Shown here one piece after another: positions 43,085 through 63,998 of a stretch of 64,000 nucleotides of DNA. The stretch comes from Amoebophrya sp. A120 (taxonomy: Eukaryota; Protista; Dinoflagellata), in the NCBI GenBank assembly GCA_905178155.1, contig CAJINV010000015.1, positions 1,237,495 to 1,301,494 on the forward strand, given 5' to 3'. Position 1 is the stretch's first letter, and each line of letters opens with the position of its first letter. The notes beneath the pieces are model-generated. The model did no database searches, was not told the DNA's origin, and saw only the letters and a list, made by a program, of their open reading frames with translations. A program made the translations under genes and the position numbers.

Positions 43085-46000
43085 CTACGCCACCACGGCA
43101 AATACGGAACTTCCAACCGCCGCCAGGAGCAACATCCACGGAATCTGTTTCGCGGCAAAGGCTGCGCTGGCCTCGGCGTCGTCCCCGTTGCCACTGGAAG
43201 CACCGCTGGCCGCGGGTGCGTCGCCCGCATTGGCGGCCTATGGGAGTGCACAACTCCCCCTCCCCCTCATTTGTATGGCATGAACAGCAATTTAAGTGTC
43301 GGCACGAATGCAGGTTTTGCATGGCAAATTCACCCAGGATTGTAGCGATGCATAGTAGTCACAGGAGGGAAAGTGTGGCAGTTGTGTTTTGCATGACAAA
43401 TGAGAACGAGGGAGACGAGTTGTGCATTGTCATACGGCCAACTGCCCGTGCACAAACCCCGGAACTGGAAAGGCTAACTTCACGCTGGAATCGAACGCAC
43501 TGATGCAGCCCCCGCTACCTTCGCACAAAGACACCGTCCACACCTGGGCAAGAATTTGAATTTCGATAATTTAACATTAATGTCGCGGTGCAGATAAAAT
43601 GCAGAGATCAATTTTCGCAAGTGCATACTTAGTTTCCACAACAACGTTATTGTGGAACACCACCCACAACACGGACAAACCGGATTCGGAAAAGTTATGA
43701 GCAGCACACGACAACACGCACAGCATCTGAAGACAAACTGAGACTGTCTCTAGTGGCAGTGCTAGAGGCCTGGCTGAATGCAATGAATGCAAATGGAAGA
43801 AAAAAAAAACGACTTTTCAATATATTTTTACGTTGTAGGGCGGTATCTGTGCTGGAACCACGGCCTGGAAAGAGAAGGAATAGGTTCCCTGTTGCTGCTA
43901 TCCCCTGCAAATATGTTGCCTAGGTCTGGATCATCAGACCACAGTGTAGATCTGAAATAAGTTGTACCATGCATCATGCTGTTTTCGCGTGACCAAGAAG
44001 GTCTCCGACATGTTGGACATGCAAGCCCTAGAAGTAGCATGACAGGCTTTATGGAGATGACTCTTCCATGCCTCAGCTAGTACCTTTTTCAGTGACAAAA
44101 AATCGGCATCAGCTTTTCTTCCTGTTCATGATGCATGCGAAATTCTTCTCTATGTGAACAGTACGCATCAACAAAAGTCTGCTGGGTTTGCTTCTTTATT
44201 CCAGACCCAGATCGAATATTATATATTTGCATGGCATAGCTGCAGCCCGGAGGGATCCACGTCTGGTCCCGTCATCAGCGAAATCCTGAGCCGGTCCTGC
44301 TGTGTGGAATCCAGCCATCTGGGCACATCGTCCTCATCCATGACCAAGGGCATACCGCCCGGCTGTCCGTTCAGTGCGGTTTTTACCTCGGAAAAGCTGA
44401 CGATGGTGTGGAAAAATCCCTCGGGAAAATTTATGCAATACAAATTTCCCGTACATAATGTACAAGAAGCATCACAAATTTCACCACGTAGGAGTCGTGT
44501 GCAGCCACTTTGTCAGGCTAAACCAGAATCGAAGCTCAGTTTTGTCATGCAGAGACCGCATGTGCACCTGTACGGAAAATTTTCTCCTGTGGATAAAATT
44601 GATCAACACCTCACCGAGGTCTCGCAGCGACCGGTCGCGGATATACATTGCAAAAAGATAGTCTGGGTCCTCAGGAGCGATGCAGCTTGTCATGCGGAGT
44701 CTCGACCACAGGCTTTTCCGTGTTGCATGCTTAGGCTCTTCTTGCTAAGCAAGAAGCCGAATTTCTCATGTGGTGCGTGAGATGTATGACAAATCTTGCA
44801 CTCTTCCAAAGGAACCAGACAAGTACTTTGCACTTGATAGCCAAAGGAGGTTGTTGATTCGTACACGGTGAACGCTACGGTCATGTCCGACTTCTTGTTG
44901 GCGTCTGCTCGGTTCCAGCTCAGGTCGGAGACTGAAAATGAATTTTTATTTTTGCGATCCTAGGCACGACGAAGTTGGACACCTCTCGTGACTTTTGTCC
45001 AGTGAGGAAAGAGCGACAAACTAACATTCTCATCATCGTCATCATCATCATGTTCTAAAAATCATTCAAACAAACGAAGACTTCTGTACAGCGAATGTCG
45101 ATCCCGCTAAGCATTTTCAGGCCTTCTCGGTCCATTGCGGCATCCCGCACTTCTTTCTGCAAGTCGTAGAGCAACACAGAGTATGGAATGCAAATATGTC
45201 TGGGTCTGGATGAATGCAGATGTTTGTCATGCGCAGTTTGCATAACCCCTGGCGTCTGTGATGCATGCCCTAGCATCGCAGATTTTTCAAGGGCTTCCTG
45301 ATGTTCATGCCGCATGAGAAATGCCCTCTCCGCGTAGCAAAAACTTGATCCCTCTACAAATTGCAGTTCATGCAATACGAATTCTGTGTAGAATCCAAAG
45401 GCAGCATCACAAGTTGGCATCCTTCCAGACCCAGACATATTTGCAATCCATAGAGAGAACCGGTTGTTCACGGGTGTGGTCTGCGGCACCATGGTTCGCA
45501 TCGAAAACGCGTACTGTGCAGCGGGTAAAGTAGACGACAGTTTCAACCGCACCTGGTTGTTGCCCCCCTGCTCACACTTCACGTCGCCGATGAGAGAGTA
45601 TGACAGTGCACAACTACTCCCCCTCGCCCTCATTTGTATAGCTGCAGGAACGGCAATACAAGCATCAGAAAGAATGCCGGTTTTGCATGACAAATTTGCA
45701 CTATATTGCGATTGTAGCGATATTAGGGCTACAACCAGAACTTGTCATGCAAACAGTGCCAAGAGGCAGAGCCAGGATTTGGTATTTTGCATGACAAATG
45801 AGGGGCAGAGGGAGTTGTGCACTCTCATAGAGAAATCGGCTTCAGATTTCCGTCCTCGCAGTTCACCTCGAACGCCTCGGGGACTAGCACCAGAATCGTT
45901 CCCCCGCCCTCGAGGGTGATGGAGGATTTGAAGCCTATGGTAATCTCGGACTCGACCCCCGGCATATCCTGTGCAAAAGTATCGTACTCGTACTAATTGC

Positions 46001-49000
46001 GTTTATGCATTACAAATCTTTTTCTTAAGGCAAATCCGCATTACAAATCCGCATTACAAATTCAATTTGTAATGCTAAGCCAATTTGTAATGCAATCTAT
46101 ACTAGTACGAGGCTTTTGCATTGCATACGGCACCGCGGTGTACAAAACTGTGGTCTCGGCCATTTGCTGTATCGGGTACCCGATGGGGTCCTCGCCCCAC
46201 GCGACGATGGCGTTGGATACGGAATATCGCAGGAAAAAACTATTTCATCACTGTGATGATTTTGCAAGATCTGCATCACAAGCTTGTTACACATGGCACA
46301 GAAAATCTGTCATGCGCACTTCCCAAGGGAAAACGCCCTTAAAATAAATCAAATGTCTTGCATGTGTAGCAAAACAAATAGTTTTGTGCTCCATTCCATG
46401 CATCACAGGCTCACAGTGAAACAGTTTTTTCGTTGGATACGGAATCCTCCCCGATCACAAACCAGGCCGTGGGCACGGGCGTTTTCCTGTATCCTGAGTA
46501 AAAACGTCCCCACACCAGAGTTGTCATGCAATTCTGCATGCCAAAAAAGTTTCTCATGCGGAGCCCTATGAGAAGTATTTTCCATTCGTGCTTTGGAATT
46601 TGTGATGCTAGAATCAGCACGATGTGCTAGATCTGTCATGCTTCTGAGCTAGCGCAATAGGATTACACTACGAGGACAAGCTTGTCATGCCAAACAACGA
46701 AAGCTGTGTGATTTGTCTAGCAGATTTCCCATCTTGACTATGGTGTGGGGACGTTTTTACATAGGATATCCTGGGCGGCACCATCAGTAGGTCTATGGAC
46801 ACTTCGGACTGCAGCCCGTCGGGCCGGCAGGTGCAGAGCGCCGTGTTTCGGCTCGCCATGGGTGGCCCCTGCCGACACTCCAGCACGTCGAGACTCGAAG
46901 TCAGCAGCGAGTTTCCCTCAGTAAAGTTGAAGTTGCTCGGCGCCACGATGTATGGATTGCAAATATGTCTGGGTCTGGAAACTTGTAATGCTGAGTGGGA
47001 AATAGTGACTGCTCTGCAATGCACAGCCTAGCATGAGAAGTACTTTCGTGCCTGAGTGTTGCGGTTTCCGCATGACAGACTGCGTTTTTGCATGACAAGC
47101 AAAAGGATCTCTTCTTAGCCGCGCATCACAAGCCCCTCAGTCATGCCAGACAAGCATGACAAACCCTGCCTCCTTCCAGACCTAGATATTTTTGCAATCC
47201 ATACGATGCGCAACCGGTTCGGGGTCGCGGCTGCGGGGTTGATGCGCACGCGGGTGTATCCTACGCAAAAACATCCCCACCCCAGAGTTGTCATGCAAAT
47301 TTGCAAGCACAAGAGCATTTGCAATGCGCATCCCCATGAGAGGCACTCCCCATCGTGTTTTGAAACTTGTAATGCTGTAAACAGGATAAAGAGACGGATT
47401 TGCTATGCGAATTCCCTTGCTATGCTGCACTACAGTACAGCCCGCAACTTGTCATGCGTGACCCCCAAAAGTTCTAGGTTTGTGTTGCAAAATCCCCATC
47501 TTGACTCTGGGGTGGGGACGTTTTTACACGGGATAGGGTGGTCAGCTTCGCCAAGGGCGGGCTCCCACCGGGCGCGGACGCCGTGACGGCGATTTTGCCG
47601 ACCAGGTGGAACCCGCCCTGGTCCCCGTCGTTCGTGTTGGACGGGAGGCACTGGATTTCCGTCAACACGGCGATCGAGGGGTCCAGTTGCTGCGGCTGGC
47701 ACTCCGGAGCCAGCGTGCTCTTCCACGACCTGGTCTCGATTCGCCAGGTTTCTCCGGGCATGGTATGGATTGCAAATATGTCTGGGTCGGGAAGATTCGG
47801 GGAGTCTGTCATGCACAATTGTACATGACCCGCGATGCCTGTGATGCATGCTGTAGCATCACACACAGTTCTCGCAAAGCCTTGCTGATGCCTATTCTGC
47901 ATGAGAAATGCCCTCTCCGCTTGGCAAAAATTTAAAGGATCTCTTGCTACTTACGCAATACAGGTTTCTCTATCGTCGACAGTTAGCATCACAAATCCCA
48001 TTCTTTCCAGACCCAGACATATTTGCAACGCATACATGGTGGGGGTTTGCATGAACACCGTGATCACGTAGTGCGTCTCCTTTTTCAGGGTCTCCTGCAA
48101 CTGCACGTCGATCTGGCCCCCGCCGTAGGAAATCACCGAGAACGACACGGCCGTGCCGACTTTCTTGAACATGCTATCGATCATCAGGTGCTCGGCATCG
48201 TACTCGTGGATCGCGAAATTTTGGTTCATATCCTGTGTAAAAACGTCCCAACCCCAGAGCTGTAATGCAGATCTGCATGCTTAAAATGTTTCTCATGCAG
48301 AGACACACGAGAGGCGTTTTCTAGTGGCGACTTGAGATTTGTCATGCCCGAGTCAGCACTACAAGCCGGATCTGTGACGCTACTGAACTAGCTCAACAGG
48401 ATTACACTACAAGGCCAAAGCTGTCATGCGCAACAGCCAAAGCTTGTTGATTTGTCTAGCAGATTTCCAATCTTGACTGTGGGGTGGCAACATTTTTACT
48501 CAGGATACTTCATGATTTGATACGGCGGTCCGGATACGGTGAAGTAGGACCCCGCGGGGGCGTCCGTGGACAGCATGATGAAGAAATCCGCATAGGCCGG
48601 GCTGTCGATCCGCATGGGCAGCTTTTCCTTGATCGGGTACTGCACTGGGTGCATGGAAAACCCGGAGTACAGGCGGGGCGTGCGGTATGCAAGAAAAAAA
48701 CTGTGGAAGTGTAACTCTGTAATGCAGAAAATGCAACAGACTTACACTTGTCATGCCAGACAACCATGCAGCCCTCTTTTCATGTGTCTTTTCCCTTACA
48801 AGCCACGCATGACAGGTTTTCTCTGTCATGTGGAGCAAATTTGTAATGCTGCCAACCAAAGAAAGTTACACTAACACAGTTTTTTTCTTGGATATGCGGA
48901 AAGAGGAGATCTTTCCGGGCTGGGAAAACCCATACTGAAAACCGAGCTTTTCGTCTTTCGTCACCCCGTTCAGAAGCCTGTGATAATATTTTTCACTTAC

Positions 49001-52000
49001 ATGTGGTATGCACGACGGCGCATGACAAACTTTACAGGTGATAGGTGCCCCTGCATTACAAAAAAAAAAAATTATCAAATCAAAACTATACGTCGTGATG
49101 GAGAAGATCGTTGGCGACCCAATGGCTCCAAGTTTCACCTCCTGTAAGTGAATGACCGTCGTCGAAATTACCGCCGGATTTATGTTTGCCCGGATGGAGA
49201 TCGTAGCACCTTGGTGTTTGTGGTTTCTTCTGAACTTCGTATAAATGCATTTCCTCAGCATGAGAAATAAAATTTGTAATGCGGATTTACCTTAACAAAA
49301 GGATTTGTAATGCATGATTACCATCCACGGTTTTGATCTCCTGCCCGGTGACGAGTTTTGCCAGCGTGAAATCGAATCCCGCCGGGGAGTCCGCGGTTAG
49401 TCGAACCTCGTTTGCCACGCTGACCGACACAAACCGAAATTCGATGTCAGACCTGGACCCCGCGGCCCGGTTGGCGTTTGGCAGCAGGCCGAGCCGGATC
49501 TGCACGCCCATTAATTGCGGCAAAATCTGCCAAGACTCCCAAATGTCGCTGGCCATCAGCTGCGGGCTCCCGGCAGTGTCTTTGGTCAGCAGAAGCGGGT
49601 CCAGCTGCAGCAACGACTCGGCGACCGTGGCCGAAGTTTTGGCCGCGGTGCTGTCTATAACGCTCCCAGCTGTTACAATCTCAAACGTTACAGTAGAATG
49701 TGGAAATCTGTGATGCAGGAAGTGCATGCACTACCGTACAACCCATAGGTTTGCGCATGACAAGTTTCGGAGCCCGAAACCCAATTGATATCCGGCGAAA
49801 TTTGTATTGCGAAAGGCGCAAACCTACATACGTTCCTCATGCTTTTCATGCAAGACAAAATCCAGATTCTATTGTAACGTTTGAGATTGTCACGTTTGAG
49901 CAGGTCATATTGTCGTAGACGGTTTTTTTGTAATGGTACACGCGCCAAAAGTTATCGAACAGCTCGGGAGTCGCCGGGGGGTTTACCGTGTTAATTCGGA
50001 ATTTCACGGCGGTGTCCTTGGGCACGGTGAAACTAACCACATCCATCACGATCAGATTTTTGTAGCAAAACACCGTCGATTGGGGGCCGAGGTAGAGCGC
50101 ATCGACTATCACAGGAAGAAAGTGTTTCACTGTAAGCATTTTGCAACTTTTGCATTACAAGCTTGTTCCGCATGACAGAGAAAATTTGCCATGCAAGCTT
50201 CTTTCCACTTTGTGCAAATGCTTCTGTGTTCCATTTTGCGCATTACAAGTTTACAGTGAAACAGCTTTTTCTTGCGATATCGACCGGGTCAAATTTGAAC
50301 TCGTTGCACTCTGTGTTGTGCACTGCCGTGCCTGATATAGAATTTTGTTCAGGTTCTTCATCAATTCTTCGACGCATGCGAAACTTTTTTTCACAACTTC
50401 TCATGCGAACAAACATAGCAATTGTCATGTTGTCTACAAACAGGAATCGTCGAAACACAACCAGCTTGTTAAAGAACCAACGGCAAAAAAAATCATCATC
50501 CTGTACTTCCGATCAGCTGTTTGGTCAATTGAAAGGTTGTGGGCGCGATATAGACCACCTGGTGTCCGGGGTCCATCCTCACTGGGCTTTCGAAGTGGAC
50601 AAACAGGTTCGGAATCGCGGTCATACCGTTCCTATGCATTGCAAATATGTCTGGGTCTGGAAGGTTGGAACTTGTCATGCTAAATCTGAATCATGTACTT
50701 AAAAATCTGTGCTGCGTGATTACCAAAAGCTGGTGTCCACTTGTGACCTAATCGAGATGCAGTTTGTTCTCATGCAGAATAGGCATCATAGATAGAACTA
50801 TGTATCACAGAATCTGTCATGCTATGTCCTACATACCAGACCTCATGGGTCATGGAAAACCTGCATGACAAGTCTGGCATTCTTCCAGACCCAGACTAAT
50901 ATTTGCAGTTGATAGTTCCGGATCGGCTGAAACTGGGCGTTTTCGTTTCGCATATCGTAAGGAAAAATCCCCCCTCCCCATATTGAAAAGGTATGCTTCC
51001 GAAAATTTGCATTGCTGAATTGAGGTAACAAATCGCATTTGTTTTGCAAGAAGACAAGGGCAGAAGCTTCCGCCCTATTATGGAGGCGGTTTGTCATGCT
51101 ATTGGGCCGAAAGGGGAGTCGTTTGCCGTGCTGAACAACTAGACCCATACGCCCCTACCTAGCCTGGGGATCTGGCCGCAGTGCCTCTCTGCAATACAAA
51201 GCTGATTCGTGTACACAAATCCAGCATCAGAAATTCCGTTTTGATACGGGGAGCGGGGATTTTTGTTTCCGATATCGCAGGAAAAACCGCTTCATCACGT
51301 GGTTCACCTCGTACGCCGGTATTCTCATCTCGTCTAATTCCGAGCCCGCGCGCATGTCCTCGTAGGAGTAGGACACGACGAAAAACTTGTAAAGAAACTC
51401 CTCCAATGCGAGCAAGGGGTTTTGCACGTCCAGTTGCAGCTGAGAGTATTTGGTGATGGAGTAATTTCATTCTGCTATTGCGTAAGTTAAATCTCAGAAT
51501 CGATCTGCAGCGAGACTTTGTCCTCCAAAAATGCGAAGATGATAGCGATAGCGAGTGCTGTAATTTTCTTTTTCATCATGACCACATCACAAGTAAAGTG
51601 TCAAAAACTCGTCGTGCGAAGAGCTCTTTTGAAGAAAAAAAACAGTACATTCATTTCCGTACCCTGTATTTCCGGTGCGCCATGAAGGCCTTGTCACTGT
51701 TCAGGTACAATAACAAGACCCGATCCGGCCCAATTTGCCCATCGTCCGTTGCCGGAACCGCGGCTTGCACTCGGCACCGGATGTCGTTGGCCGACCAAAA
51801 TTCCTCTGCCAGCTGGACATCCTCCTTATCCACGGTGATCACATGCGGCCCAGCGTAAATGCTGATTCGGTTGCAGTATCGTAAGGAAAAATACCCCCAC
51901 CCCAGAGTTCTTGTCATGCTGATGTCCAATGACAGGAATATTTGTGATGCGCGTACCCATGATAGGCATTTCCAGTCGTGTTTTGAAATTTGTAATGCTG

Positions 52001-55000
52001 TAAACAGGATAAGCAGATGGATTTGTAATGCGGCTGCCCACGCTAATCTGCACTACAGTACGAACTGAAATCTGGCATGCGTGACCCCCAAAGCTTCTAG
52101 GTTTGTGTTGCAAAATCCCCATCCTGACTCTGGAGTGGCGGATTTCGCTTTGATATGCAGATCCCGTTGGTTTGCGAAAACTTGAAGTCTTGTGGGGCAA
52201 TCAACTTCAAAACACCCCCGGAATTCGGCGTGGGCAGATCGGGGGAGATGGTATTCCGGGGCTTCAAGTCGAATTTCACCGGAATATGCCGAATTTCGTT
52301 GGCGGGCGACCGGGCCGTGGACCTGAGGTGTTACTTTGTTTTCTTCACATCGCGTCTCGAACTTGTCATGCTACTTTAAGCATGAATGTGAACCAACAAT
52401 GTTCATGCAATTGTGCAAGAAAAAACAAAGGGCGAACAAACTGTCAATCTACACACCAGCATAACAAACATCCTCGTAGTAGTACCTCGTTTCCACGTTC
52501 GTCTCTGTGAACGTCCAGAGCACAAAACCCGGCATCAGCTCGTTTACCGAAGACTCGCCGTTGAATTCCAAAGCGTAGTTGTTCTCGGCTGGAGTGAACT
52601 CCGGGTTCGACTTTATCCCGATGCGGAACGCGTACAGCCGGGCCGCTTCCAGATACACCTTGTCCTTTGGCTGGACGGTAAACACCGCGGTGTTTTTGGA
52701 GCCCCGACAGTATGGATTGCAAATTTGTCTGGGTCTGGAAGAAAGGAACCTGTGTTGCGTGTCTTAGATTTTTCGTGTAAAATCTGTATTGCGTGACCAG
52801 GAAATAAAGGAGCCTTCTTTTGTCATGCAAAAGCGCAGCTTCTCATGCGCACTACGCATGAGAAAGTGTCCGAAACATTTGTCATGCTTGGTCGACCCTT
52901 TCAGGGGTATGCTCAATCATCGCCACCCAGCATCACAAGTTTCCAGACGCAGACAGTTTTGCAGGTCATAGACAGTAGGTGATCTCGATATCGGTCGACC
53001 ACACGGTGTAGTCCGCCGGCATGGGCTGGCCGCCGAACACCGTTGTGGGCCGGACCTCCAAGACTGACAAACAGTCCTCGTAGAACAAAAACCCCTCGGG
53101 GGCGCGAATGCTCATGTCGTAGGTAGAGACCACGGGGTTGGTCTGCGGCTTCGCGTCCTTATTGAGTTTGAAAGAGAAAATCAAACTGTTCGGTCGCAGA
53201 GGCCGGTCGTCGCGCCCGGTCGCGAGCCGCACCGGCTCGTCACTAGGTTGATCGAGAAGCAGCAGCCTCGCCTCCATCATTCTCTCATTCACCGGAAAAC
53301 TAGTGGCCGCGATCGGTCTATCTTGCGAAGTATCAAATGTAAAAATGTCTGGGTCTGGAAACTTGTGATGCTGAATGGCGTAGCATGAGGAGGCCACAAA
53401 TGCTGGCTCAGCATGACAAATTTCTGAGCTTTTAGGTGTTGCCTATTCTGCATGACAAACTGCGTTTCTGCATGACAGATAAATTTGTCTCTTGGGTAAT
53501 GTGCATGACAGATTTAAGAGTCATGCCAGACAAGCATGACAAACATGCATTCTTCCAGACCCAGACACTTTTACATTTGATACGAAGACGCGGCGGACGC
53601 GAGCGAGGTGGCAACCTGTAGGATCATGTGTGTTTTTTTATTGCGTGGCTTTGTCTTGTACAGTTTTCTGTGAAGCAGAGACAGCAACAGAAACTAGATT
53701 CGTCATGCACTTTGCAAAGCAAAACACCACAAAAATACCGTTGTGTCGGACGCCGTACTGAAATCCCAGCACATGGTATATCCGCAACTGCTCGACACGC
53801 TTGCCGCCTGCGAGACCGCCAGCGTTGGGTTCTTTGCGATGAGCACAAACCCATACGTCGCCGGCGGTAGCATATCCTGTGCAAAAGTTAAAGTACTCGT
53901 AGGAATCCCAATCATGCATTACAAATCTCCTTCTTAACCTCAATCCGCATTACAAATTTCATTTTTCATGCTGAGGGAATTTGTCATGCGATTTCTACTA
54001 GTGCGATGCTTTTGCATTTCATAGAGCACCCCCTGGGCCGAAGTGATCCGCAGTTCGGGTCGAGTCGCGGTTGTCAGCAATCTCGTCGGAACAGCTCCGT
54101 CGACCGAATCATCTTCTTCCAGCAGTTCTCTCGGCGGCGACCATACGGAGCACGTCGTCCCCGCCGGAAGGTCCACCGTCCCCTCCGGTAACGGCCGAAG
54201 GTTTTCCAGCCCGCAGTTCGCCTTTTCGTACAAATACCCCGTTGGAGAGATCAACACGAGCCCCCCGTTTTGCGGTAGTTGCGTGACCGTCCCGATCGTG
54301 AACGATAACCTGTTCTCCCGGTTCGCGACGTTGGTACTGTACCCCACCGACGCAGACGTCAACGCCCTAATTTTCGGGGCCGGAATGACCCCGCCAAACG
54401 GCCTGGTGGCGAGGGTGGTGCCATCGTAACCAAATTCGACCGTGAAATTTGCCATGGACCCGTGCGGTGCGTAATTCGGCACTTGTACCGGCACTTTGAA
54501 GCCGTAATGTTTGTTAGCGGTGGAGAAGTCGTAGGTCGTTGGGTTCGCGAAATTCAACACGTGTAACGGCCCCACGGTCGGCGCGTTGGTGTGCGGAAAG
54601 TCGGCGGACGCACTGGTGCTGTAAAGCGTTGCGGACGGCCCGGAATTCCGGTAGGCCCACTTAGTTCCCGGCTTCCACTCGTAGTATTGAATGCAAATAT
54701 GTCTGGGTCTGGAAGACTCATGCTGCTTCTGCATGACACAGAAGGTCTGGCATGGAAGTTCTAGCATCACAGATTTATCCGAGAAGCTTCCGCAATGCCG
54801 AATCCGCATGACAAATGCCGCTCGATTTTGGCGACAGAAAGTGGGCAGCTTTGGCTGCCTATGCATGAGAAATTTTTCCGTGTTGTGAAATGCGCATCCC
54901 AAGATTGCATTCTTCCAGATTCAGACACATTTGCAATGCATAGGTAGCCAAAGGGCGCGATAATCCGGAGTTTCACGTTGGTCAGAGTCATGGGCAAGTT

Positions 55001-58000
55001 TCGCACGAAAAACGTCAGATCCGAGTACACGTTGGACAGGGCGAATGGTCGCATGTCATTGATCGACAGGTCGTATCCTGTACAAAAGTATCGCACTCGT
55101 ACTAATTGCAATTTTGCATGACAAACCTACCTTTTATTTTAATACCTGAATTTTTAGCATTACAAATTCCATTTTTCTTTCTGATAAAATTTGTAGTGCA
55201 GTTTGTACTAATACGATACTTTTGCAATGCATAGGTCGCACCGAATTTCCTGCGGCGTGTTTAAATCGTAGTTGTACAGACCAAAAGATCTGCCGCTCAA
55301 ATCCGTGTAGTTCGTCGTTCCAATGCCCTCCGTTAGCGCGATGGTGCCCTGCCCCGAATCGAAGACCCCGTCGAAACTGCCGTCGACGTCCCGGGATTGC
55401 GAATCCTGCGTAAACATCTTATGCATTGCAAATATGTCTGGGTCCGAAAGGATGTAACTTGTGATGCTGCATTTGGACACTACGAACATCTGTATTGCAT
55501 GAACAGTAAAACAGGTCAAGTTTTTGCCACGGCGAAAGGGCATTTCTCATGCGGTTTAGGCATCAGGGAGACCTCACAAAATCTGTGATGCTAGGGCATG
55601 CATCACAGACGTCAGGAGTCATGCAAAATGTGCACGACAAACCTTTCATCCTTCCAGACCCAGACATGTTTGCATTTGATACATCTTCCAGTTGACCAAC
55701 TGTGTCACGTCGAAGACGTACGGGTTGATCGACCGCAATATGGATTGCAAAAATGTCTGGGTCTGGAAACTTGTAATGCTGCGTTGGGAATAATGAATGC
55801 CCTGTAATGCACAGCCAAGCATGGGAAATATCTGCGCTTCTTTGTGTTGCGTTTTTCGCATGACAAGCTGTGTTTTTGCATGACAGGCAAAAGGGTCTCT
55901 TCTTGGACACGCATCACAAACTTTTTGGTCATGCCAGACAAGCATGACAAATCTCGCAATCTTCCAGACCCAGACATTTTTGCATTTGATACGCAAGGCG
56001 AACCCGAACTTCTTATTTGCGTCGATGATCCCGCTCACCTGCACCTTCGCCCGGTTCCTGGGGGTTCGCTCGTAGATGCACTGCTTCACCCCGTTTGGTA
56101 AACGGTGGGTCAATTCCCCCGGTCGAAAGGCGTAGTACTCCATCGGCAGATCGTATCCCACGAAAAAAGTGTTACAGTTACACATTTGCTCTTAATTCAG
56201 CAACACAAATTTTCTCCGCATGAGAGAGAAAACTTGCAACGCACAGATCATAAGGGAAAACAGGTATGTTGACACGAGGCCCAAAAGCCTTTCTGGCATG
56301 ACAGAGGTTGTCTGTCATGCTGGGCCTGCAACACAATGTGTAACTGTAACACTTTTTTCTCGTGATAGATCGCTGGCGTGGCAGTTCGGGTAGTCGTATT
56401 GGAACCGAATCGACTGCATTTCGTTGTATCCTGTGTAAAAACGTCCCCACCCCAGAGTTAATGTCATGCAAATGTGCAATGACAGGAACATTTGTAATGC
56501 GGATCTGCATGAAAGGCATTTCCAATCATCGTGTGTGGGACTTTGTAATGCTGTATTAACAGGATGAGAGGCTGGCTTTCTCATGCGACTGCCCTTGCTA
56601 AACAGCACGACGCTGCAGATGGAAAATTGTCATGCAAAACTCCCAAAACTTGGAGATTTGTGTTGCAGATTTACCAACTTGGCTATGGGGTGAGGACGTT
56701 TTTCCACAGAATACGTTGACCACGTTATCCATCGGCGCTTGCAACACGATCATGCCCTCCAGCCCGACCGGGGATTCTGTTTTCAGAAACACGAATAACT
56801 GCGGCCGCACCACCCGGTTCGACAACTGCGCGCCCATAAAGTCCGACGGGTGGAGGATGGTGTCTCTCAAATACCCCAAAACCGCGACGTTGCTGCTGTA
56901 ATTTGCCTCAATGGTCGCTTTGAAGATGACCGGACTCGTTGTCATGGGCAGGCTGAAATACCCTTTGGACATTTGCGACACCGTCCACTCGTTCAGTTTG
57001 TTGTCCTGCGCGAGGGCCGTCGCGGGGTTATTCACCGTGAATTTCACAATGATCGCGGACCCGGAGGGAATTAAGCCGTACTGCCTCAACCGAAACCGAC
57101 ACAACCGCGGGTCGCTCGCGAACACGCTCCAGCCGTGCGAGGTGACGCCCGCCACGTACTCACTGGTGGTCGGCGCGCCCCGGCCCTGCGGCGCGGTGTG
57201 CGCATAGAGATTTAACGTCGACTCCGCCGCCCAGGGGTTGTACGCGGTCGCGAGAATGCCCATTTGGTCCGGAATGGTGCAGTTATACCCCGGGGGGAGT
57301 CGCACATCGAACCCGGCGTCCTGGTTCAAATTGGCGGCGAACAAGGTCGCCGCAAACTGCAGCCGCACGTAGAGGATGTTCGAGGTTTGCGCCTTAAACG
57401 GGCGGGAATTCCCGTCGCCGAAGCTGGTCACGATCTTCGCGATGGTGGTGCCCGCGTCCGGCTCCTTGTACAGGTAGTTGTTGTTTCCGGAGAGAATGTA
57501 CGACGGCCTCGTATCCAACTCGTCCGTGACCTGAGCGCCTAATCTCGTGGAGAAAAACCCGTTCTTCGGCATGGTCAGGTGCTGCACCCGCAACTGCATC
57601 TTCACCGACCCCTGAATCGTGGTCATGATCGCCGGCATGGTGATCTTCACGACGTTGTTGTAGCTGTTCAGAACCGTCGGCACGCCCTGGCAGTTCTGCG
57701 CCGGGCCTCCCTGGTGCGCCACCGCGTCGTAGGGGATGGCGGTGGCGAGACAGGTGGAGCCGATGTTCCAGGTCGTTAGAGGTTGGAGATACAGCCGGAT
57801 AATCGCGCCCTGCTTGATCTGGTAAGTCGGGTCGCCCGCCAGTTCCATTCGCAGTGCGTCACCGGACACCAACGTGACAACGTTGTCCTTCGACTGTCCC
57901 GGGTAGTCCTCGAGAATCCGCACCCCGCCCGGGTTGAGCCACCGCGGACTGGTGACGGAAGTGGAAATTCGCTCCGGCGTCTTCGACAAAGCAGCCTCTC

Positions 58001-61000
58001 CCCGCTCGATAGCCAAGTACGGGTTAATCCCCCGGTCGTCCATCGTGAACACCTCCAGATATTTCCCTCCCGCGGTGGCAGCGCCGTGAACGGATCCATG
58101 CATCACCACCTGGTAGTTGTATCCGGGTCGCAAACCGTTCTTTGCTTCAAAAACGACGAAAATCTCCCGCGTGAACCCGTATTTCTTGTAGTAGCACCCC
58201 TTGGGCAGCGGGAACCCGTAGTCCAGGTCGTCGCTCCACATCTCCCGGAATAATCGCCCGCAGATGTACTGCCTCGCCTCCTCGTAGTCGTCCTCGGACG
58301 CATTTTATCCCACGAAAAAAGTGTTACAGTTACACATTTGTAGTGAATTCAGCAACACAAATTTCTCTGCATGAGAGAGAAAACTTGTAATGCAGAAATC
58401 CTACGGGAAAACACCTAGGAAACGAGGCTCCTGTGCATACCCGGCATGACAGAGCTTGTCTGTCTTGCTTGGCCTGCAACACAATGTGTAACTGTAACAC
58501 TTTCTTCTTGCGATACATTTGCCTCGATACTCGAGGCGATGTCGTCGCTGTAATAGATCTCGAACGTGCTGGTGTCTTGCAACACAAATTTCAGCTGCGT
58601 CTCGCCCACGACCTGACTGTACCGCGCGCCGGTGGTCGCAGAAGCGGTCTTAAAGGAAATCACCACCGGAGCTTTGGCGTCGAGCAGGGTGGACGTGAGG
58701 GACAGCCGCACGTCTTGCATCGGGTTGGCGCCGACCAGGGTAAGGAAACCGACCTGATAAAGGGTGGTTGATGAAAAGTTCGATAAAGTCAAAGAACCAT
58801 GATTCGTTTGCCAGCATGAGAAATTGTACCCACCATGCTCTGTTTCGCATGACAACAAAACAGCTTCAAGAAAACGAACGACCCCAATGTTCATAGTACT
58901 TACATAACTTCTACAACCTGCGGCCAGTACCTCTTCTACAAACCGATTCGGGTCGGTCCCTCCGTAGTGAAAGCACACCCGCAAATTCGTTCGGTCCCGG
59001 ACTCCCTTGATTTCCCACTTGGTCATCGCCCGATTTCGCCGGGCCCACTGCCCGTATACGGGGCTCGAACCCGCCGTGATGGACGCGAATTGCACCTGGA
59101 ACAACGGCCGCCCGTTCTCTCCCGCGGCACACGCGTTGGGCGGCGGGGGATTTCCTGTGGAGTAGCAATCCGCCTTCCACCCGTACTGTATACGCCACTT
59201 CAGCGGGTCCGTGGTCGGTTTGATTTTGTGCCCCACCATGTAACTGTCGGTCGCGGCCGCGTTGTTGGCCCCGGCGTCACTGTAAGTGAACACGCCCTTC
59301 AATTCCATCAGCTTCTCATTACTGCATTGGTACGAATTCGGATGGCAGATGATGTTATCCCCTAGGGTAATCACGTCCGACCCGTCTTGCGCGAATTCCG
59401 GGTCGAGCTCAAACTCCACCTCCGTTTCGGTATCGGAAATCGCAGTGACCGACCGTATGTCGTTTCGCTTGCAATTTTCGAACTTGTCGTCGCAGTTGAA
59501 GGTGGAAGAGGTTGTGATCAAGGTTTTCAGATCGCCATTAACCGTGTCTGTGATCGACCCAACATTTGTCGCGAATTCGGGCGCATCGACCTGCAAATAG
59601 GTGAAGGGGTAGGAGCCCTTATCTGGATTTCGGTTGTTGTCGCTGCACTTGCCGTCGCCGGAGATTATCCTTAATTTGTTATCGCTCGATAACCCGAAGC
59701 CAAAATACTCCAATTTGAAGACCACTTGCGTCGAGAAACTCCAATTGTGCCCGGCGGTCGGCCCCTTGATGGTCATCCGCGCGGCCAGGATCCAGTAGTC
59801 CTTGTGCATGCACCCGTTGCTGTTCGCATCCGCGAACTGGCAGTAGCAGATCCCGATCACCCCGGCCTTCTTGATCGTGATTTTGTTCGCCGAATTCCCC
59901 GCGTTGAACGCCAACCGATCGCTGTTCACGCCCTTGCCCCGGTAATTTGTGTAGGCGCTGGCGGCGGAGAGACCGCCGACCGGCTCGACTAGGTTCGCCA
60001 AATGCTCGTTGTTGTTCGTCTGGCACTGCGCATCGGACCCGTGCGCGCCGGTCTGCTATCCTCAGTAAAAATGTCCGCACACCGGAGTGTTCAAGATGGG
60101 AAATCTGCTAGACAAATCTACAAGTTTTGGCTGTCCTGCATGACAAATTTTTTAGACTCGTAGTGTAGTGCTGTTTGAGCTACCTCAGAAGCATCACAGA
60201 TCTAACATATCATGCTGATTGGAGCATGGCAAATTCCAAAACACGACTACTAGAAAATGTTCCTCATGGGGATCCGCATGAGAAACATTTGCAGCATGCA
60301 GATTTGCATTACAACTATGCTGTGGGGACGTTTTTCAATACGATATCTGCTCGATGATCTTCACGACCCCGTTCTCCGCCAACCCCATCACCTCGTTGTC
60401 GGCCGCGTCCCTTCGGAACACAATCTGCCCAGGCTCTAACACGTATTGGAGGGACAACAAGTTTGCGTTGCTCGCGGTCGGACTAACGGACGACAACAAC
60501 CGCACCCCCGTGAACCGAATCTGCCCCACTTTGAACCAGTTCGCGCCCGCGTCCTGCGTGCACAGCCCGTCGCAGTAGCAGATGTCTAACCCGACGGAGT
60601 TGTGGAAATTCACCCTCTCGTAGTCGTGTTCCGCGGCGTCGAACTTGAAGCCCGTGGTATATGCGATGGTGGACAGCGATATGGGTGTGTCAGGTTCGAA
60701 ATCGACAAAGTTGAAATAATCTGTGATGCATAAAACGCAAGGCATGAAGTGCCTCTCTTGCAGGGATGGCAAGTGAGACCGATTCTTGTGAGCCTGTTTC
60801 GGGTTTGTGATAGTTAGAGCTGGTAAAGTGGCGTGACAAAGGATGCCTTCTTTCGCTAAACAGCATGACAAACTGGATTTCGATGACGTCGAAATTTGTC
60901 ATGCGACGCTTGGAAATTGGGCCTCCAACTGGTATCGGTTTTATGCATCACAAATTTTTCAACCTCGTCAATTTCAATCCTGACAGTTCCATAAGCGGGT

Positions 61001-63998
61001 CGGTTTGCGTGTAGGGCGGGAACTCCTTCATGGTGTGTGGCGCACCCTCCTATTGTGAGGAAAAATCCCCCCTCCCCATATCGAACAGGCGTGCTTTTGA
61101 AAATTTGTGATGCTGATTGGTGGCCACAGATCGAGTCTGTCTTGCAAGAGAGCAAAGCCAGAGACTCCGCCGCGTTTCGCAGGCGCTTTGTAGTGCTGCT
61201 GCGCCAATGGGGCAGACGTCTGCCATGCTAAGTACCTAACTCAAGCTACCCCTTTCCGGGCTTTGTATCTGCCTACAGTGCTCTGCTGCAAGACAAAGCT
61301 GATTTGTGTACGCAAATACAGCATCACAGACTTCCCTTTCGAACTGGGGAATGGGGATTTTTCATTTTGATACCTCCACCGTGCCGTTCATGTTGCATTC
61401 GATCACACCAGAACAGATACCGGTGTTCCCGGTGGGGAGCACAACTCCGACGGGGAGCGGTGTGGTGGCCATGATCTCCCTTCCCGCGAAATTCCTCCCG
61501 TGCATTTTCGTGCGGCAAATGTTCCGGCTGTCGAACTTCGGGTAGTCGTAGGCCGCTGTCGGGCTGCGCGCGATGATTTTGAATCGATTGTTTTTCGCGT
61601 TCGCGCACGCCCCCTCCGGGCAGTTGATGCGGATTTTGAAATGTTTCTGCGGAATGGTCCCTGTGTAGTCTGTGCCGCAGGTCTTGTCGTCCGAGCGACA
61701 GGTTTTCGCGGTGTAGAAGTGCACCGTCCCCAGCATCTGCGAGTACTGCAACGGCGAGGAAGCTAAGCAACTCGCTGCGGGACACCAACAAGCCGCGGTA
61801 GAAAAGGGGACAAAGCCGGACCCGTCCGTCGCGCCTCCGGTCAGCGTGTTCTTCGTGGACGGCAGGTGGAACCTTCCCGTCCCCCTTTGCTGCACCGCGA
61901 GTTTCAGTCGGTTGGCCGCCCCGGATTCCACGGGCGTGTTGCAGTCCCCGCCCGCCCCGCCGTTCATGCAGATCTGCGTGGCGTAGGTCGACTGGCCGCA
62001 CAACTGCGCTGCTGTCGGCGTGGCCGTGTCAAAGGACGGGCCCCAACTGCCCTTGTACTGCGTTTCGCCGATGCCCACCCAGCCCTGGTTCGCCCCGTCG
62101 AACGCGACCACGCAGTGCGTGGACTGGTAGGTGTAGGTGTTGGTCGGGTTGTTGTGCTGGTTCCTTAGCAGGTAGCAGTAGTACTTTTTCGTGGTTCCGA
62201 AGTAGTCCACGGTGCCAGCGGCGTAGTTGTGGTCGTACACGCCGTAGATTTCCGCCTCCACCGGCCACACGTCCACGTTCCCGGTGGTAAACGACCCGTC
62301 GCCGGACACGCAAATGCGGAAAAACCCGCCCATCAGAAATTTCAGCGCGGTCGAATCGGACGTGGGTGTGCCGTACTGCAGCCACCCGTTCTGTTCGTTG
62401 TCCGCTCCTATCAAATGTAAAGATGTCTGGGTCTGGAAGGTTGGAACTTGTGATGCTAACTTTGGACTCGAAAAAAATCTGTATTGCATGACCAGCAAGA
62501 GAGGTCTCGTCTCTGCTACGCGGGGAGGGCATTTGTCATGCGGAGTAGGCATCAGGAAGCCCTCGAAGAATCTGTGATGCTAGGTCGTGCATTACAGAAA
62601 CAGACATCCTGGGTCATGCAAAATATGCATGACAATAAATCTCAGAATCTTCCAGACCCAGACATTTTTGCATTTGATAGCTCCACCAGTGGAAAAGGCG
62701 TTCGTCGCGGGCAGCGCCTTTCCCCCGTTCTGGCACCACGCGTTGCTAATCACCGAGCACCCGGGGACGGTTGCCTGGTTGTCCTGGCAGTGGTTGCTCC
62801 CCTCTGCGGTCGTTTTCGTCACCGTGTTTCCGACAAAACGCGTCCGCAACGAGTTCTGCAGCCCGGACAGCCACGTGTGCGCGGAGGCCTTGGAGAACCG
62901 CAGTTGCAGAGCCTTGTATTCCTCCGCGGATTCCCGCACGTGCTTGGTGGTCGTGAAATCACCCGCGGTGACCGAAGCCGTGGTATCTAGCTCCGCAAAC
63001 CTGGCGGACGTCGGATAGGTGTAGAGCGACATAGAATCGCGGGCGATCCCCGCGTTGCCCGTCCAGTAGATCCCGCCCGAGGGGACGACGACTAACCGTC
63101 TTCTCAACCAGTCGAACTTCCGCGAAAACCCTTGCGGCTGCAGCTGGTCTCCTGCTCCCGGTGGAAATTCGCCCGTGTTCCCGAAGTCGTCCACTAGTTC
63201 GCCGCCGGTAGTGGCGGACGTTCTGCCTCCTTGTCTCTTACTGTACCGGTTCCGGTGCTGTTTTGGGACCAGAGGGTGTATGTTCTCGAAATTAGAGGCG
63301 GAGTATTTCGATTGATTTTCGTCCTCGGTTCCCGGTTCTATCCCGTCTTCCGCCCCGTCGAGCGAAGCAGAAGCTGCGGAACTTGCTGTTTCTGATCCAG
63401 TACCACCACTACTCACCCGACTGGCACCCGAGGAAGAACTTGACGCTGTGCCCGTGCCGCCGCGGAGGTTCGCTATGGTCGGCGACTCGTTTGCTAAAGT
63501 GCCCGTGCGAAAGGGCTGCGTGAGGAGAAAAAGCCACCACATTTGCTTCGTGCGCCGGTGCCGTATTCGCTTCAGGCAGCGAAGAGGTTTGTTGTCCTTA
63601 CCGGAAACACCTTGTGTTGCTGACTGTGAATCCTCATCCGCACAACTCCCGGGCTCGTTTCTTTGTATTTTCCCCGTGCTGGTGTCGCTTTCGGGCGCTG
63701 TGGTGTTGCTGCTCCCGCGGCCTGGTGATGCTGCCTTGTTCTTCGACGCTGTTATCACACCTTGATGAGCTAAAAGTCCTTTGCAGGTCCTGCTGGAGGT
63801 CGTTCTCTTGTTTTCTGTCTTCGGGTATTTTGTTCTGCTGCCATGGCGGAGCGAGGTGGATGTGGAAGAACTAGGGCTCGACGTCGTCGATGCGGAAGAT
63901 GTGGAGGAAGTAGCACGACCAGTGGCAGAAGGAAAACCACAACGCTTTTTACTACAAGAACCACTGGCAGCAGGAACAAATTTTTCATCTTCTCGCAC
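43085..63998 (-). CDS. Giant multi-exon gene (~3,600-3,700 aa visible), probable GPI-anchored surface protein with tandem beta-sandwich-like repeats; 42 introns; 5' end uncertain or beyond the window
   Basis: Removing 33 TIR elements (each plus one direct repeat) and 9 GT-AG introns joins ORFs 62592-63998, 61362-62552, 58415-60001, 56598-58241, 53940-54902 and many smaller pieces into one frame. It ends ...SGASSGNGDDAEASAAFAAKQIPWMLLLAAVGSSVFAVVA* with TAG at 43085-43087. Function is inferred. Confidence 0.85.
43239..43434. mobile_element. Introner family G
   Basis: tatgggagtgcacaact...agttgtgcattgtcata; DR cggcc. Confidence 0.88.
43544..43831 (-). other. Canonical GT-AG intron
   Basis: Joins IPPYN to VWTVSLC. 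Confidence 0.8.
43899..44238. mobile_element. Introner family A, diverged
   Basis: DR gctgc. Confidence 0.85.
44432..44595. mobile_element. Introner, minor family H
   Basis: tatgcaatacaaatttcccgtaca...tgtacggaaaattttctcctgtggata; DR aaatt. Confidence 0.85.
44642..44839. mobile_element. Introner family A, degenerate
   Basis: DR gcgga/gccaa; frame restored. Confidence 0.7.
44932..45089 (-). other. Canonical GT-AG intron
   Basis: Joins to give IDIRFSDLSW. Confidence 0.7.
45182..45452. mobile_element. Introner family A
   Basis: DR cagag/gagag. Confidence 0.9.
45599..45829. mobile_element. Introner family G, inverted relative to 43239
   Basis: DR gagag/gagaa. Confidence 0.88.
45965..46127. 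mobile_element. Introner family D
   Basis: tatcctgtgcaaaagtatcgtact TIR; DR cggca. Confidence 0.9.
46225..46439. mobile_element. Introner family F
   Basis: DR cggaa, extending to 14 bp. Confidence 0.88.
46490..46768. mobile_element. Introner family B
   Basis: DR tcctg; 279 bp. Confidence 0.92.
46951..47203. mobile_element. Introner family A
   Basis: DR cgatg; 253 bp; close to 55739-55991. Confidence 0.92.
47257..47535. mobile_element. Introner family B
   Basis: DR gggtg; 279 bp; close to 51877-52155. Confidence 0.92.
47764..48034. mobile_element. Introner family A
   Basis: DR catgg. Confidence 0.92.
48229..48507. mobile_element. Introner family B
   Basis: DR gttca/cttca; 279 bp. Confidence 0.9.
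48686..48894. mobile_element. Introner family E-like
   Basis: tatgcaagaaaaaaactgtg...cacagtttttttcttggata; DR tgcgg. Confidence 0.88.
48978..49091 (-). other. Canonical GT-AG intron, 114 nt, stop-free and in frame
   Basis: GTATAG...CACAG; the ORF reads through it. Confidence 0.7.
49210..49321 (-). other. Canonical GT-AG intron
   Basis: GTAATC...CCAAG; joins to give KTVDGATISI. Confidence 0.7.
49661..49902. mobile_element. Introner with non-TAT termini (caatctcaaacgttaca TIR); boundaries approximate
   Basis: ~35-bp inverted repeat between two coding segments. Confidence 0.65.
50107..50279. mobile_element. Introner family F
   Basis: DR tcgac. Confidence 0.9.
50332..50506 (-). other. Canonical GT-AG intron
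   Basis: Joins to give QLIGSTAVHN. Confidence 0.75.
50633..50914. mobile_element. Introner family A
   Basis: DR gttcc. Confidence 0.9.
50953..51274. mobile_element. Introner family C
   Basis: DR tcgca; 322 bp. Confidence 0.9.
51440..51662 (-). other. Canonical GT-AG intron
   Basis: Joins RKYR to LQLDVQNP. Confidence 0.75.
51877..52155. mobile_element. Introner family B
   Basis: DR tgcag; 279 bp. Confidence 0.9.
52323..52485 (-). other. Canonical GT-AG intron
   Basis: Joins to give NVETRSTARSP. Confidence 0.78.
52711..52970. mobile_element. Introner family A
   Basis: DR gacag. Confidence 0.9.
53331..53582. mobile_element. Introner family A
   Basis: DR cgaag; 252 bp. Confidence 0.92.
53616..53738 (-). 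other. Canonical GT-AG intron
   Basis: Joins ASDTT to VATSLA. Confidence 0.75.
53873..54023. mobile_element. Introner family D
   Basis: DR tagca/gagca. Confidence 0.88.
54685..54942. mobile_element. Introner family A
   Basis: DR cgtag/ggtag. Confidence 0.9.
55074..55233. mobile_element. Introner family D
   Basis: DR ggtcg. Confidence 0.9.
55420..55681. mobile_element. Introner family A
   Basis: DR catct. Confidence 0.92.
55739..55991. mobile_element. Introner family A
   Basis: DR cgcaa. Confidence 0.92.
56154..56367. mobile_element. Introner family E
   Basis: tatcccacgaaaaaagtgttacagttacacatt TIR; DR gatcg. Confidence 0.92.
56427..56713. mobile_element. Introner family B
   Basis: DR cgttg. 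Confidence 0.9.
58306..58515. mobile_element. Introner family E
   Basis: DR cattt; close copy of 56154-56367. Confidence 0.92.
58754..58930 (-). other. Probable canonical GT-AG intron, 177 nt, stop-free and in frame
   Basis: AG|GTACTG...ATCAG|GT; AT-richer than the flanking exon. Confidence 0.65.
60057..60345. mobile_element. Introner family B
   Basis: DR tctgc. Confidence 0.9.
60688..60985. mobile_element. Introner with TGTCAGG...CCTGACA termini
   Basis: ~48-bp imperfect TIR; removal with 3 nt gives DPLMEPISLS. Confidence 0.75.
61051..61372. mobile_element. Introner family C
   Basis: DR cctcc; 322 bp. Confidence 0.9.
62409..62679. mobile_element. Introner family A
   Basis: DR gctcc; joins FSTGGA to DNEQ. 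Confidence 0.92.

What the first reader, a model, noticed from the sequence alone, without database searches (positions are those of the whole stretch)
43085..62684. 33 TIR-bounded transposon-like elements act as non-GT-AG introns in one intact giant gene
Seen: 151-340 bp elements, nearly all ending TAT...ATA with 20-45 bp TIRs and a 5-bp direct repeat that differs at each site. Deleting the element plus one repeat restores a continuous frame at every junction traced (one, 49661-49902, only approximately). Most cannot be shifted within the repeat to give GT-AG; 61051-61372 is an exception. Known: introner elements with inverted and direct repeats forming non-canonical introns are described in Amoebophrya, and their excision mechanism is unresolved as far as I know. 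Inference: they are removed precisely from the RNA by a machinery reading the terminal stem and repeat, or else excised from DNA like ciliate IESs.
Basis: partly seen in the sequence, partly recalled or inferred. Interest (0 to 1): 0.9.

Follow-up and report, generated by a model that had tools for sequence, protein, structure and literature searches.

The report
Thirty-three transposon introns in one gene
A giant gene for a predicted surface protein is split by 33 small transposons lacking normal intron ends; where transcript data reach, they are removed exactly with their 5-base insertion scar, matching a known but mechanistically unsolved intron class of the marine parasite Amoebophrya.

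Summary
Observation confirmed. Thirty-three TAT…ATA elements (151-340 bp) lie at 43239-62679, each between 5-bp repeats (25 perfect, all different). Transcript contigs of one run match this to the base for 16 elements and lack GT-AG introns too, while DNA-like contigs keep the elements: removal is at RNA level, not IES-like. The end motif (TAT-N7-AAA) is the one Farhat 2021 gave for Amoebophrya A120 introners, so the kind is known; the scan also noted similar introns in other genomes. Added detail: copies work in both orientations; in 3 of 3 informative junctions the cut lies at least 1 nt outside the 5' TAT; no G·U bias in the stem; TAT is not obligatory in related loci; one GT-AG intron is a TIR-less relic of an element family. 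Best mechanism (inferred): paired TIR arms position a fixed-register cut, likely by a U1-less spliceosome; an endonuclease-ligase is the main rival. Interest 0.35.

The parts
43085..63998 (-). Giant gene, 3,684-codon open frame after splicing (5' end open at the window edge; a possible start Met at 63539); predicted surface protein of tandem beta-sandwich domains with a hydrophobic C-terminus
62409..62679 (.). Element 271 bp, perfect 5-bp repeat
   Evidence: RNA contig skips 62404-62679 = 276 nt, both sides seen
61051..61372 (.). Element 322 bp, perfect repeat; the only one that can give GT-AG
   Evidence: RNA piece ends at 61373
60680..60993 (.). Element 314 bp, imperfect repeat
   Evidence: frame only
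60057..60345 (.). Element 289 bp
   Evidence: RNA piece ends at 60051
58754..58930 (-). GT-AG intron 177 nt
   Evidence: RNA length and piece end
58306..58515 (.). Element 210 bp
   Evidence: RNA exact length
56427..56713 (.). Element 287 bp
   Evidence: RNA exact length
56154..56367 (.). Element 214 bp
   Evidence: RNA summed length
55739..55991 (.). Element 253 bp
   Evidence: RNA summed length
55420..55681 (.). Element 262 bp, opposite orientation to 55739 and 54685
   Evidence: RNA summed length
55074..55233 (.). Element 160 bp
   Evidence: RNA summed length
54685..54942 (.). Element 258 bp, imperfect repeat; RNA keeps repeat position 5 from the downstream copy
53873..54023 (.). Element 151 bp, imperfect repeat; RNA keeps repeat position 5 from the downstream copy
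53616..53738 (-). GT-AG intron 123 nt
   Evidence: RNA length
53331..53582 (.). Element 252 bp
   Evidence: RNA
52711..52970 (.). Element 260 bp
   Evidence: RNA
52323..52485 (-). GT-AG intron 163 nt
   Evidence: RNA summed length, homologs
51877..52155 (.). Element 279 bp
   Evidence: RNA summed length
51440..51662 (-). GT-AG intron 223 nt
   Evidence: RNA summed length, homologs
50953..51274 (.). Element 322 bp
   Evidence: RNA summed length
50633..50914 (.). Element 282 bp
   Evidence: RNA summed length
50332..50506 (-). GT-AG intron 175 nt
   Evidence: RNA summed length
50107..50279 (.). Element 173 bp
   Evidence: RNA summed length
49656..49909 (.).
49210..49321 (-). GT-AG intron 112 nt; TIR-less relic of the ~152-bp element family (86% over 91 nt, E 6e-26)
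   Evidence: donor side from RNA piece end
48978..49091 (-). GT-AG intron 114 nt (in-frame; inferred)
   Evidence: homolog alignment
48686..48894 (.). Element 209 bp
   Evidence: frame, homologs
48229..48507 (.). Element 279 bp, imperfect repeat
   Evidence: frame, homologs
47764..48034 (.). Element 271 bp
   Evidence: frame, homologs
47257..47535 (.). Element 279 bp
   Evidence: frame, homologs
46951..47203 (.). Element 253 bp
   Evidence: frame, homologs
46490..46768 (.). Element 279 bp
   Evidence: frame, homologs
46225..46439 (.). Element 215 bp
   Evidence: frame, homologs
45965..46127 (.). Element 163 bp
   Evidence: frame, homologs
45599..45829 (.). Element 231 bp, imperfect repeat
   Evidence: frame, homologs
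45182..45452 (.). Element 271 bp, imperfect repeat
   Evidence: frame, homologs
44932..45089 (-). GT-AG intron 158 nt (donor inferred; 45071 also keeps the frame)
44642..44839 (.). Element 198 bp, repeat 3/5 identical
   Evidence: frame; whole in DNA contig; RNA bin depth
44432..44595 (.). Element 164 bp
   Evidence: whole in DNA contig
43899..44238 (.). Element 340 bp
   Evidence: frame; whole in DNA contig; RNA bin depth 11.5 seen vs 11.4 predicted
43544..43831 (-). GT-AG intron 288 nt (inferred)
43239..43434 (.). Element 196 bp
   Evidence: frame

Best explanation
These are non-autonomous TIR transposons (introners) with a 5-base target-site duplication that stay in the DNA and are removed from the transcript as element plus exactly five bases, likely by a retooled spliceosome that finds the ends through the paired terminal repeats instead of GT and AG. 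Steps: (1) shown: TIRs, 5-bp site-specific duplications, repeated families, insertion in either orientation. (2) Shown for 16 elements in one run: exact removal from a contig that also lacks GT-AG introns. (3) Shown for 3 junctions: the 5' cut lies at least 1 nt outside the 5' TAT, and the repeat copies need not match. (4) Inferred: because both orientations work and repeat identity is dispensable, the signal is the symmetric end structure (long stem, or a protein bound to TAT-N7-AAA on both arms), and the two cuts are measured from its base with overhangs summing to 5 nt. (5) Inferred from literature only: the catalyst is the U1-less U2/U5/U6 spliceosome reported for A120. (6) Inferred from one case: an element that loses its TIRs can persist as a GT-AG intron. 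Steps 1-2 I put at about 0.92; the confidence given is for the whole chain including the spliceosome.
For: Contig-to-model distances identical in 5 of 5 segments: 1359, 2156, 819, 1513 and the 276-nt skip. The 2156 segment (six elements, no other intron) and the 276-nt skip have no free parameter. 11 listed piece ends fall at the predicted junctions, shifted by one base only at the three imperfect repeats. A DNA-like contig spans three elements whole with no differences. Retention would break the frame for 31 of 33. Homologs align across junctions with gap rate 0.27 versus 0.26 at random sites, 31 homologs. Families in both orientations: 16 of 34 related pairs opposite in this gene, including the parameter-free RNA segment; 88 versus 75 among 163 assigned of 195 oriented copies in related loci. 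Ends pair in 31 of 33 predicted folds (no shuffle control). Farhat 2021 reports U2, U4, U5, U6 and 83 of 89 spliceosomal proteins but no U1 in A120; a review states Fritillaria TIR introns are excised by the spliceosome.
Against: Nothing here tests the catalyst. RNA support comes from contigs of one run whose RNA status is the tool's guess; two raw-read runs covered only repeat fragments. 15 of 33 elements have no junction-level RNA evidence. No G·U over A·C excess in the arms (36 vs 37 here; 181 vs 161 in related loci, p 0.30), so RNA-level selection on the stem is not shown. The internal repeated motif has no fixed distance or strand, so no branch point was identified. A fixed U at intron position +2 is not established: 11 of 198 ends in coding-like context lack intact TAT versus 4 of 119 in non-coding context (p 0.43), and one predicted 5' end lacks the first T. 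The lower bound of the cut position is unresolved.
Confidence: 0.55

Rival explanations
1. Same elements and same RNA product, but removed by a spliceosome-independent endonuclease and ligase that cut at the base of the TIR stem, as suggested for euglenid nonconventional introns.
For: No conserved terminal dinucleotides at any register; orientation independence; no branch-point-like motif at fixed position; U1 not found in A120; euglenid TIR introns come out as circles, not lariats (review).
Against: The organism needs a spliceosome for the nine GT-AG introns of this same gene; no G·U bias in the stem and weak pairing at arm positions 4-8; no candidate enzyme found.
Confidence: 0.33
2. Elements are excised from DNA in some life stage, like ciliate IESs.
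For: Transposon anatomy; the library type of the element-free run is only guessed to be RNA; 3,022 lower-ranked joints were not shown, so rare DNA excision is not excluded.
Against: The element-free contig also lacks GT-AG introns; DNA-like contigs at depth ~43 span three elements whole and cross 21 element-exon junctions, 8 of them in one contig; Farhat defined these introns by RNA-seq on an assembly that holds them.
Confidence: 0.04
3. The deletions are reverse-transcriptase template switches between direct repeats across a hairpin (an artefact recalled from general knowledge), and the gene is dead.
For: Hairpin plus direct repeat is the classic setting; no direct-RNA reads were available.
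Against: 15 consecutive elements are absent from one 8,814-nt contig; repeats are only 5 bp and three are imperfect; 3,684 codons without a stop and end-to-end similarity to homologs indicate a gene under selection.
Confidence: 0.04
4. Ordinary splicing at nearby GT-AG sites.
For: Frame-compatible GT/AG pairs exist within 20-25 nt for 25 of 33 elements; 61051-61372 can be GT-AG exactly.
Against: RNA lengths and piece ends match element+5, not shifted sites; in related loci only 13 of 199 can give GT-AG.
Confidence: 0.03

Closest known systems
Introner elements (IEs) among non-canonical introns of Amoebophrya sp. A120 (Farhat et al. 2021, PMC7789003)
   Same: End motif TAT + 7 variable + AAA, inverted repeats, 3-5-nt direct repeats at the junction, non-canonical ends, repeated families, ~240 nt, genes mixing canonical and non-canonical introns. 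Tens of introners in one A120 gene are reported in PMC12130899.
   Different: No difference in kind. The paper's text gives 8-20-nt IRs and variable repeat and splice positions; here the geometry is a 5-bp duplication abutting both ends, arms of 16-66 bp, and removal of element+5. Its figures were not visible to me. That the window is A120 itself is inferred from the motif, not tested.
Euglenid nonconventional introns (review PMC11282704)
   Same: TIR-closed stem, TSD-like repeats, non-canonical junctions, MITE origin, unknown excision.
   Different: Different end motifs (CAG/CTG, pyrimidine|purine junctions); excised as circles there, untested here.
Fritillaria borealis TIR introners (PMC11282704; bioRxiv 2025.08.15.670264)
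   Same: TIR and TSD transposons acting as non-GT-AG introns.
   Different: There AG-AC/AG-AT ends prevail and splice sites correspond to the TIRs; here no dinucleotide prevails and the 5' cut lies outside the TIR.
IS3EU/GingerRoot DNA transposons (PMC10045372)
   Same: TA..TA termini.
   Different: Usually 6-bp TSD; here 5 bp; no transposase found to compare.

Membership tests
Amoebophrya A120-type introner element | IR starts TAT, 7 variable nt, then at least 3 A | tested here: met
   TAT in 66 of 66 ends; A at positions 11-13 in 29-31 of 33 at each end (definition)
Amoebophrya A120-type introner element | 3-5-nt direct repeat at the exon/intron boundary | tested here: met
   5 bp, 25 of 33 perfect
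Amoebophrya A120-type introner element | Non-canonical splice ends | tested here: met
   GT-AG possible in 1 of 33
Amoebophrya A120-type introner element | Repeated copies in families | tested here: met
   24 of 33 fall in 5 families in the gene; 28 of 33 have relatives in fetched loci
Amoebophrya A120-type introner element | Removed from the transcript | tested here: met
   16 of 33 by exact length, 2 more by one boundary, one run; 15 not directly tested
Amoebophrya A120-type introner element | Hairpin joining the ends, no internal transposase | tested here: met
   31 of 33 predicted folds (no shuffle control); lengths 151-340 bp
Amoebophrya A120-type introner element | Host genome is Amoebophrya A120 or close kin, lacking U1 | not testable with these tools
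   no genome held; run organism coded
IS3EU/GingerRoot | TA..TA termini | tested here: met
   33 of 33 (definition)
IS3EU/GingerRoot | TSD usually 6 bp | tested here: not met
   identity 0.21 at length 6 versus 0.95 at 5
IS3EU/GingerRoot | Related DDE transposase in an autonomous partner | tested here: inconclusive
   no autonomous copy in 632 kb of related loci
Ciliate IES (features recalled, no call) | Excised from somatic DNA | tested here: not met
   DNA-like contigs keep elements; life stages not compared
Euglenid nonconventional intron | CAG/CTG motif near the ends | tested here: not met
   end consensus differs (definition)
Euglenid nonconventional intron | Excised as full-length circle, no lariat | not testable with these tools
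   needs intron RNA sequencing
GT-AG introners (Micromonas/Aureococcus type) | Canonical splice sites carried or co-opted from the TSD | tested here: not met
   1 of 33 here, 13 of 199 in related loci

The most novel reading that the evidence does not exclude
A dedicated, spliceosome-independent RNA 'transposon eraser' (a TIR-recognising endonuclease-ligase, possibly a domesticated transposase) cuts at fixed distances from the stem base, removes element plus five bases in either orientation whatever the flanking sequence, and so makes insertions into coding sequence harmless; decayed copies then turn into GT-AG introns, giving a visible route from transposon to ordinary intron.
Probability: 0.25. 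Interest if true: 0.85.

Novelty: already known. Interest (0 to 1): 0.35.

Why it matters
The class is published, but how these introns are cut out has stayed open since 2021 in the papers I could read. This gene holds 33 of them with 33 different repeats, both orientations, eight imperfect repeats that report the cut register, nine GT-AG introns as internal controls and one apparent element-to-GT-AG convert, so one amplicon series could separate spliceosome from endonuclease-ligase. If removal needs only the paired ends, it explains how a transposon can flood coding sequence at little cost, and would be a sequence-independent intron system. As a discovery it is modest: it sharpens a known puzzle rather than opening a new one.

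Tried and rejected
Raw RNA runs X11 and X12 laid only 174 and 264 reads, nearly all partial on repeats: no evidence either way. The 0.68 word share of X3-X6 fits the 0.66-0.69 exonic share but is only suggestive; the small shares of X8-X10 are no evidence. Apparent excess of repeat mismatches at position 5 (5 of 9 here) vanished in 199 oriented copies: 10, 13, 10, 12, 14. Which repeat copy is exonic: coding-likelihood test 31 vs 27 (p 0.69); an A/T bias of 27 vs 13 (p 0.04) hints at the upstream copy being intronic throughout but is weak; homolog columns were uninformative. G·U bias test negative. 'TAT is an obligatory splice signal' (0 of 198 terminal bases changed here) was weakened. Only 1 of 9 GT-AG introns is a demonstrable element relic, though the internal motif is at 5.2 per kb in them versus 0.18 in exons and 12.9 in elements. 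No autonomous element in 132 loci; one 4.2-kb candidate was two separate elements. Apparent orthologous loci were neighbouring elements. Protein: no Pfam for 10 of 10 proteins, no PDB sequence match, single-sequence fold failed, Atlas gave only unnamed clusters, Foldseek only generic Ig-like chains with TM-score at most 0.22. No Rfam match. The glycofibril preprint naming A120 concerns other proteins.

Full report
Observation. A scan for inverted ends with flanking direct repeats found 31 TAT...ATA elements in 43239-62679 and two more with gapped arms at 44432-44595 and 53873-54023: 33 in all, 151-340 bp. In the whole window 31 such pairs have a perfect 5-bp repeat and at least 14 of 25 arm matches, against 0-1 in each of 10 Markov shuffles. 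The repeat is exactly 5 bp: mean identity 0.95 at length 5 and 0.21-0.35 at all other lengths from 2 to 9; 25 of 33 are perfect and all 33 differ. All 66 ends read TAT, and positions 11-13 are A in 29-31 of 33. Sliding the junction within the repeat gives GT-AG once (61051-61372), GC-AG once and AT-AC once.

The gene. It lies on the minus strand. Removing each element plus five bases and nine GT-AG introns gives 3,684 codons without a stop, from the window edge (63998) to a stop at 43087-43085. Retention would break the frame for 31 of 33 elements. The largest exon finds 209 representatives at E up to 0.001, many of 3,000-3,500 aa. Of 31 long homologs tested, most align as one stretch over residues ~430-3680, and gaps near junctions are no more frequent than at random sites (0.27 vs 0.26), with identity 0.25 vs 0.29 (junction views). 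No Pfam or PDB sequence match exists. A model of that exon from a 37-sequence alignment is confident and all-beta (pLDDT 89) and resembles tandem Ig-like sandwiches only generically (TM-score at most 0.22). With the hydrophobic C-termini seen this suggests a membrane-anchored surface protein (inference). One homolog is labelled Polykrikos kofoidii. The true start is not settled: a transcript contig runs on beyond the window's end.

RNA versus DNA. Four of 13 listed runs were laid on 43050-63049. Run X6 (RNA by the tool's guess) holds an 8,814-nt contig and two shorter ones made of exon pieces with no differing letters. Model and contig distances are identical in 5 of 5 segments. Two have no free parameter: six elements between 58300 and 54680 (2156 = 2156) and the 276-nt skip at 62409-62679. 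In the other three I chose GT-AG introns after seeing the missing lengths (177; 123; 175+223+163). So 16 elements are supported by exact length and two more (60057, 61051) by one boundary. The other 15 rest on frame, homologs and bin depth (11.4 predicted vs 11.5 seen at 43717-44383, 9.7 vs 11.5 in the next bin; most other bins are inflated by copies from elsewhere). Because the same contig lacks GT-AG introns, it is a spliced transcript. Run X1 (type not on record, depth ~43) has a contig spanning three elements whole, and its eight listed pieces all cross element-exon junctions. The raw-read runs X11 and X12 gave only partial reads on repeats and say nothing. Lower-ranked joints (3,022) were not shown, so rare DNA excision is not excluded.

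Where the cut lies. At the three imperfect repeats with a listed piece end (49656, 53873, 54685) the boundary is shifted by one base, in the direction showing that repeat position 5 comes from the downstream copy. The 5' cut is therefore at least one base outside the TAT, and a mismatch does not block exact removal. The lower bound is open, since junction reads for 43000-49700 were not obtained. Indirect tests did not settle it: coding likelihood 31 vs 27, A/T bias 27 vs 13 with p 0.04 among 50 oriented imperfect copies.

What is read. 28 of the 33 elements have relatives there. Orientation calls in these loci rest on a codon model trained on this gene, without RNA. Families occur in both orientations: 16 of 34 related pairs are opposite in this gene, and 88 vs 75 in related loci. 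Mismatches in the repeat are even across positions (10, 13, 10, 12, 14). The ends pair in 31 of 33 predicted folds (uncontrolled), but arm positions 4-8 pair only 41-66% of the time and G·U pairs do not exceed A·C (36 vs 37; 181 vs 161). The terminal triplet is invariant here (0 of 198 bases changed, 5-11 expected from repeat divergence), yet 26 of 420 ends in related loci lack it, and 11 of 198 in coding-like context versus 4 of 119 elsewhere (p 0.43); changes occur at either end (7 at 5', 4 at 3'). An internal repeated motif is at 12.9 per kb in elements, 5.2 in the GT-AG introns and 0.18 in exons, on both strands and at no fixed distance, so it looks like a transposase site rather than a branch point (inference). 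One GT-AG intron, 49210-49321, is the interior of the ~152-bp family without its arms (86% over 91 nt, E 6e-26; best of 180 shuffles 0.001); the other eight show no such match.

Mechanism. Shown: transposon anatomy, retention in DNA, exact removal of element+5 from RNA, tolerance of repeat mismatch, both orientations. Inferred: the symmetric end structure positions two cuts whose overhangs sum to five bases. For the catalyst I favour a U1-less spliceosome (0.55): the same transcript needs one for nine introns, and Farhat found U2, U4, U5, U6 and all but six of 89 proteins in A120. An endonuclease-ligase as suggested for euglenids is close behind (0.33). DNA excision, template switching and cryptic GT-AG use are each at or below 0.04.

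Comparison with what is known. Farhat et al. 2021 (PMC7789003; read: abstract, sections 10, 11, 12, 16, passages, supplement part 2 legends; figures not held, and Figs 3, S19-S23 may already show the junction geometry) describe 29,850 repeated introns in A120 with IRs starting TAT, seven variable bases and three As, and 3-5-nt direct repeats. This is that class. PMC12130899 (passages) reports tens of introners in single A120 genes and a TIR-flanked family with integrase-like ORFs, a plausible source of 5-bp duplications (my inference). PMC11282704 (section 6 and passages) treats the excision as unresolved. PMC12005148 (passages) shows other Amoebophrya use GT-AG. PMC10045372 (passages) gives TA..TA ends but usually 6-bp TSDs for IS3EU/GingerRoot, so membership there fails. 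PMC9860276 and bioRxiv 2025.08.15.670264 were seen as passages only. Roy 2023 (Curr Biol) was not seen. Five searches listed no paper whose title or abstract start resolves the Amoebophrya mechanism; the library lacks most subscription journals. Earlier notes of this scan report similar introns in three other genomes and none in this one. IES features and the template-switch artefact are recalled, not from a call. That the window is A120 or close kin is inferred from the motif.

Verdict. Real, well supported, already known as a class. The additions (exact 5-bp geometry, cut outside the 5' TAT, orientation independence, one conversion to GT-AG) are incremental but make the gene a good test substrate. 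Interest 0.35; the boldest reading, a spliceosome-independent eraser, has probability 0.25 and would merit 0.85.

Noticed in passing
window 49210-49321: A GT-AG intron that is the TIR-less interior of the ~152-bp element family (E 6e-26): an apparent element-to-canonical-intron conversion.
   Followed up: yes
window 11451-12322: Exact 55-bp direct repeat around a ~760-bp insert with 10-12-bp tandem arrays in inverted arms, next to an element-like left end; 83% match over 572 bp in L041. Possibly another mobile element.
   Followed up: partly
window 917-37569: About 15-20 further TAT...ATA elements in other, mostly minus-strand genes; removing some opens a 1,011-codon frame at 39592-35128.
   Followed up: partly
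window 27212-27465 and 30151-30415: Elements with good arms but offset or poorly matching flanking repeats; informative for the cut register if transcribed.
   Followed up: no
L008 632-1465; L018 3862-4492: Longer derivatives (834 and 631 bp) with intact ends and perfect 5-bp repeat carrying cargo without a long ORF.
   Followed up: partly
window 43085-63998: The host gene belongs to a broad unnamed family of ~3,000-3,500-aa predicted beta-sandwich proteins with hydrophobic C-termini (209 representatives), without Pfam or PDB match.
   Followed up: partly
all elements: An internal 7-8-base motif recurs in both orientations, often about 32-33 bp apart, and in 7 of 9 GT-AG introns.
   Followed up: partly
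window 43085-62684: Target repeats rarely begin with A (3 of 33) or end with T (2 of 33) in transcript sense, a roughly palindromic target preference.
   Followed up: no
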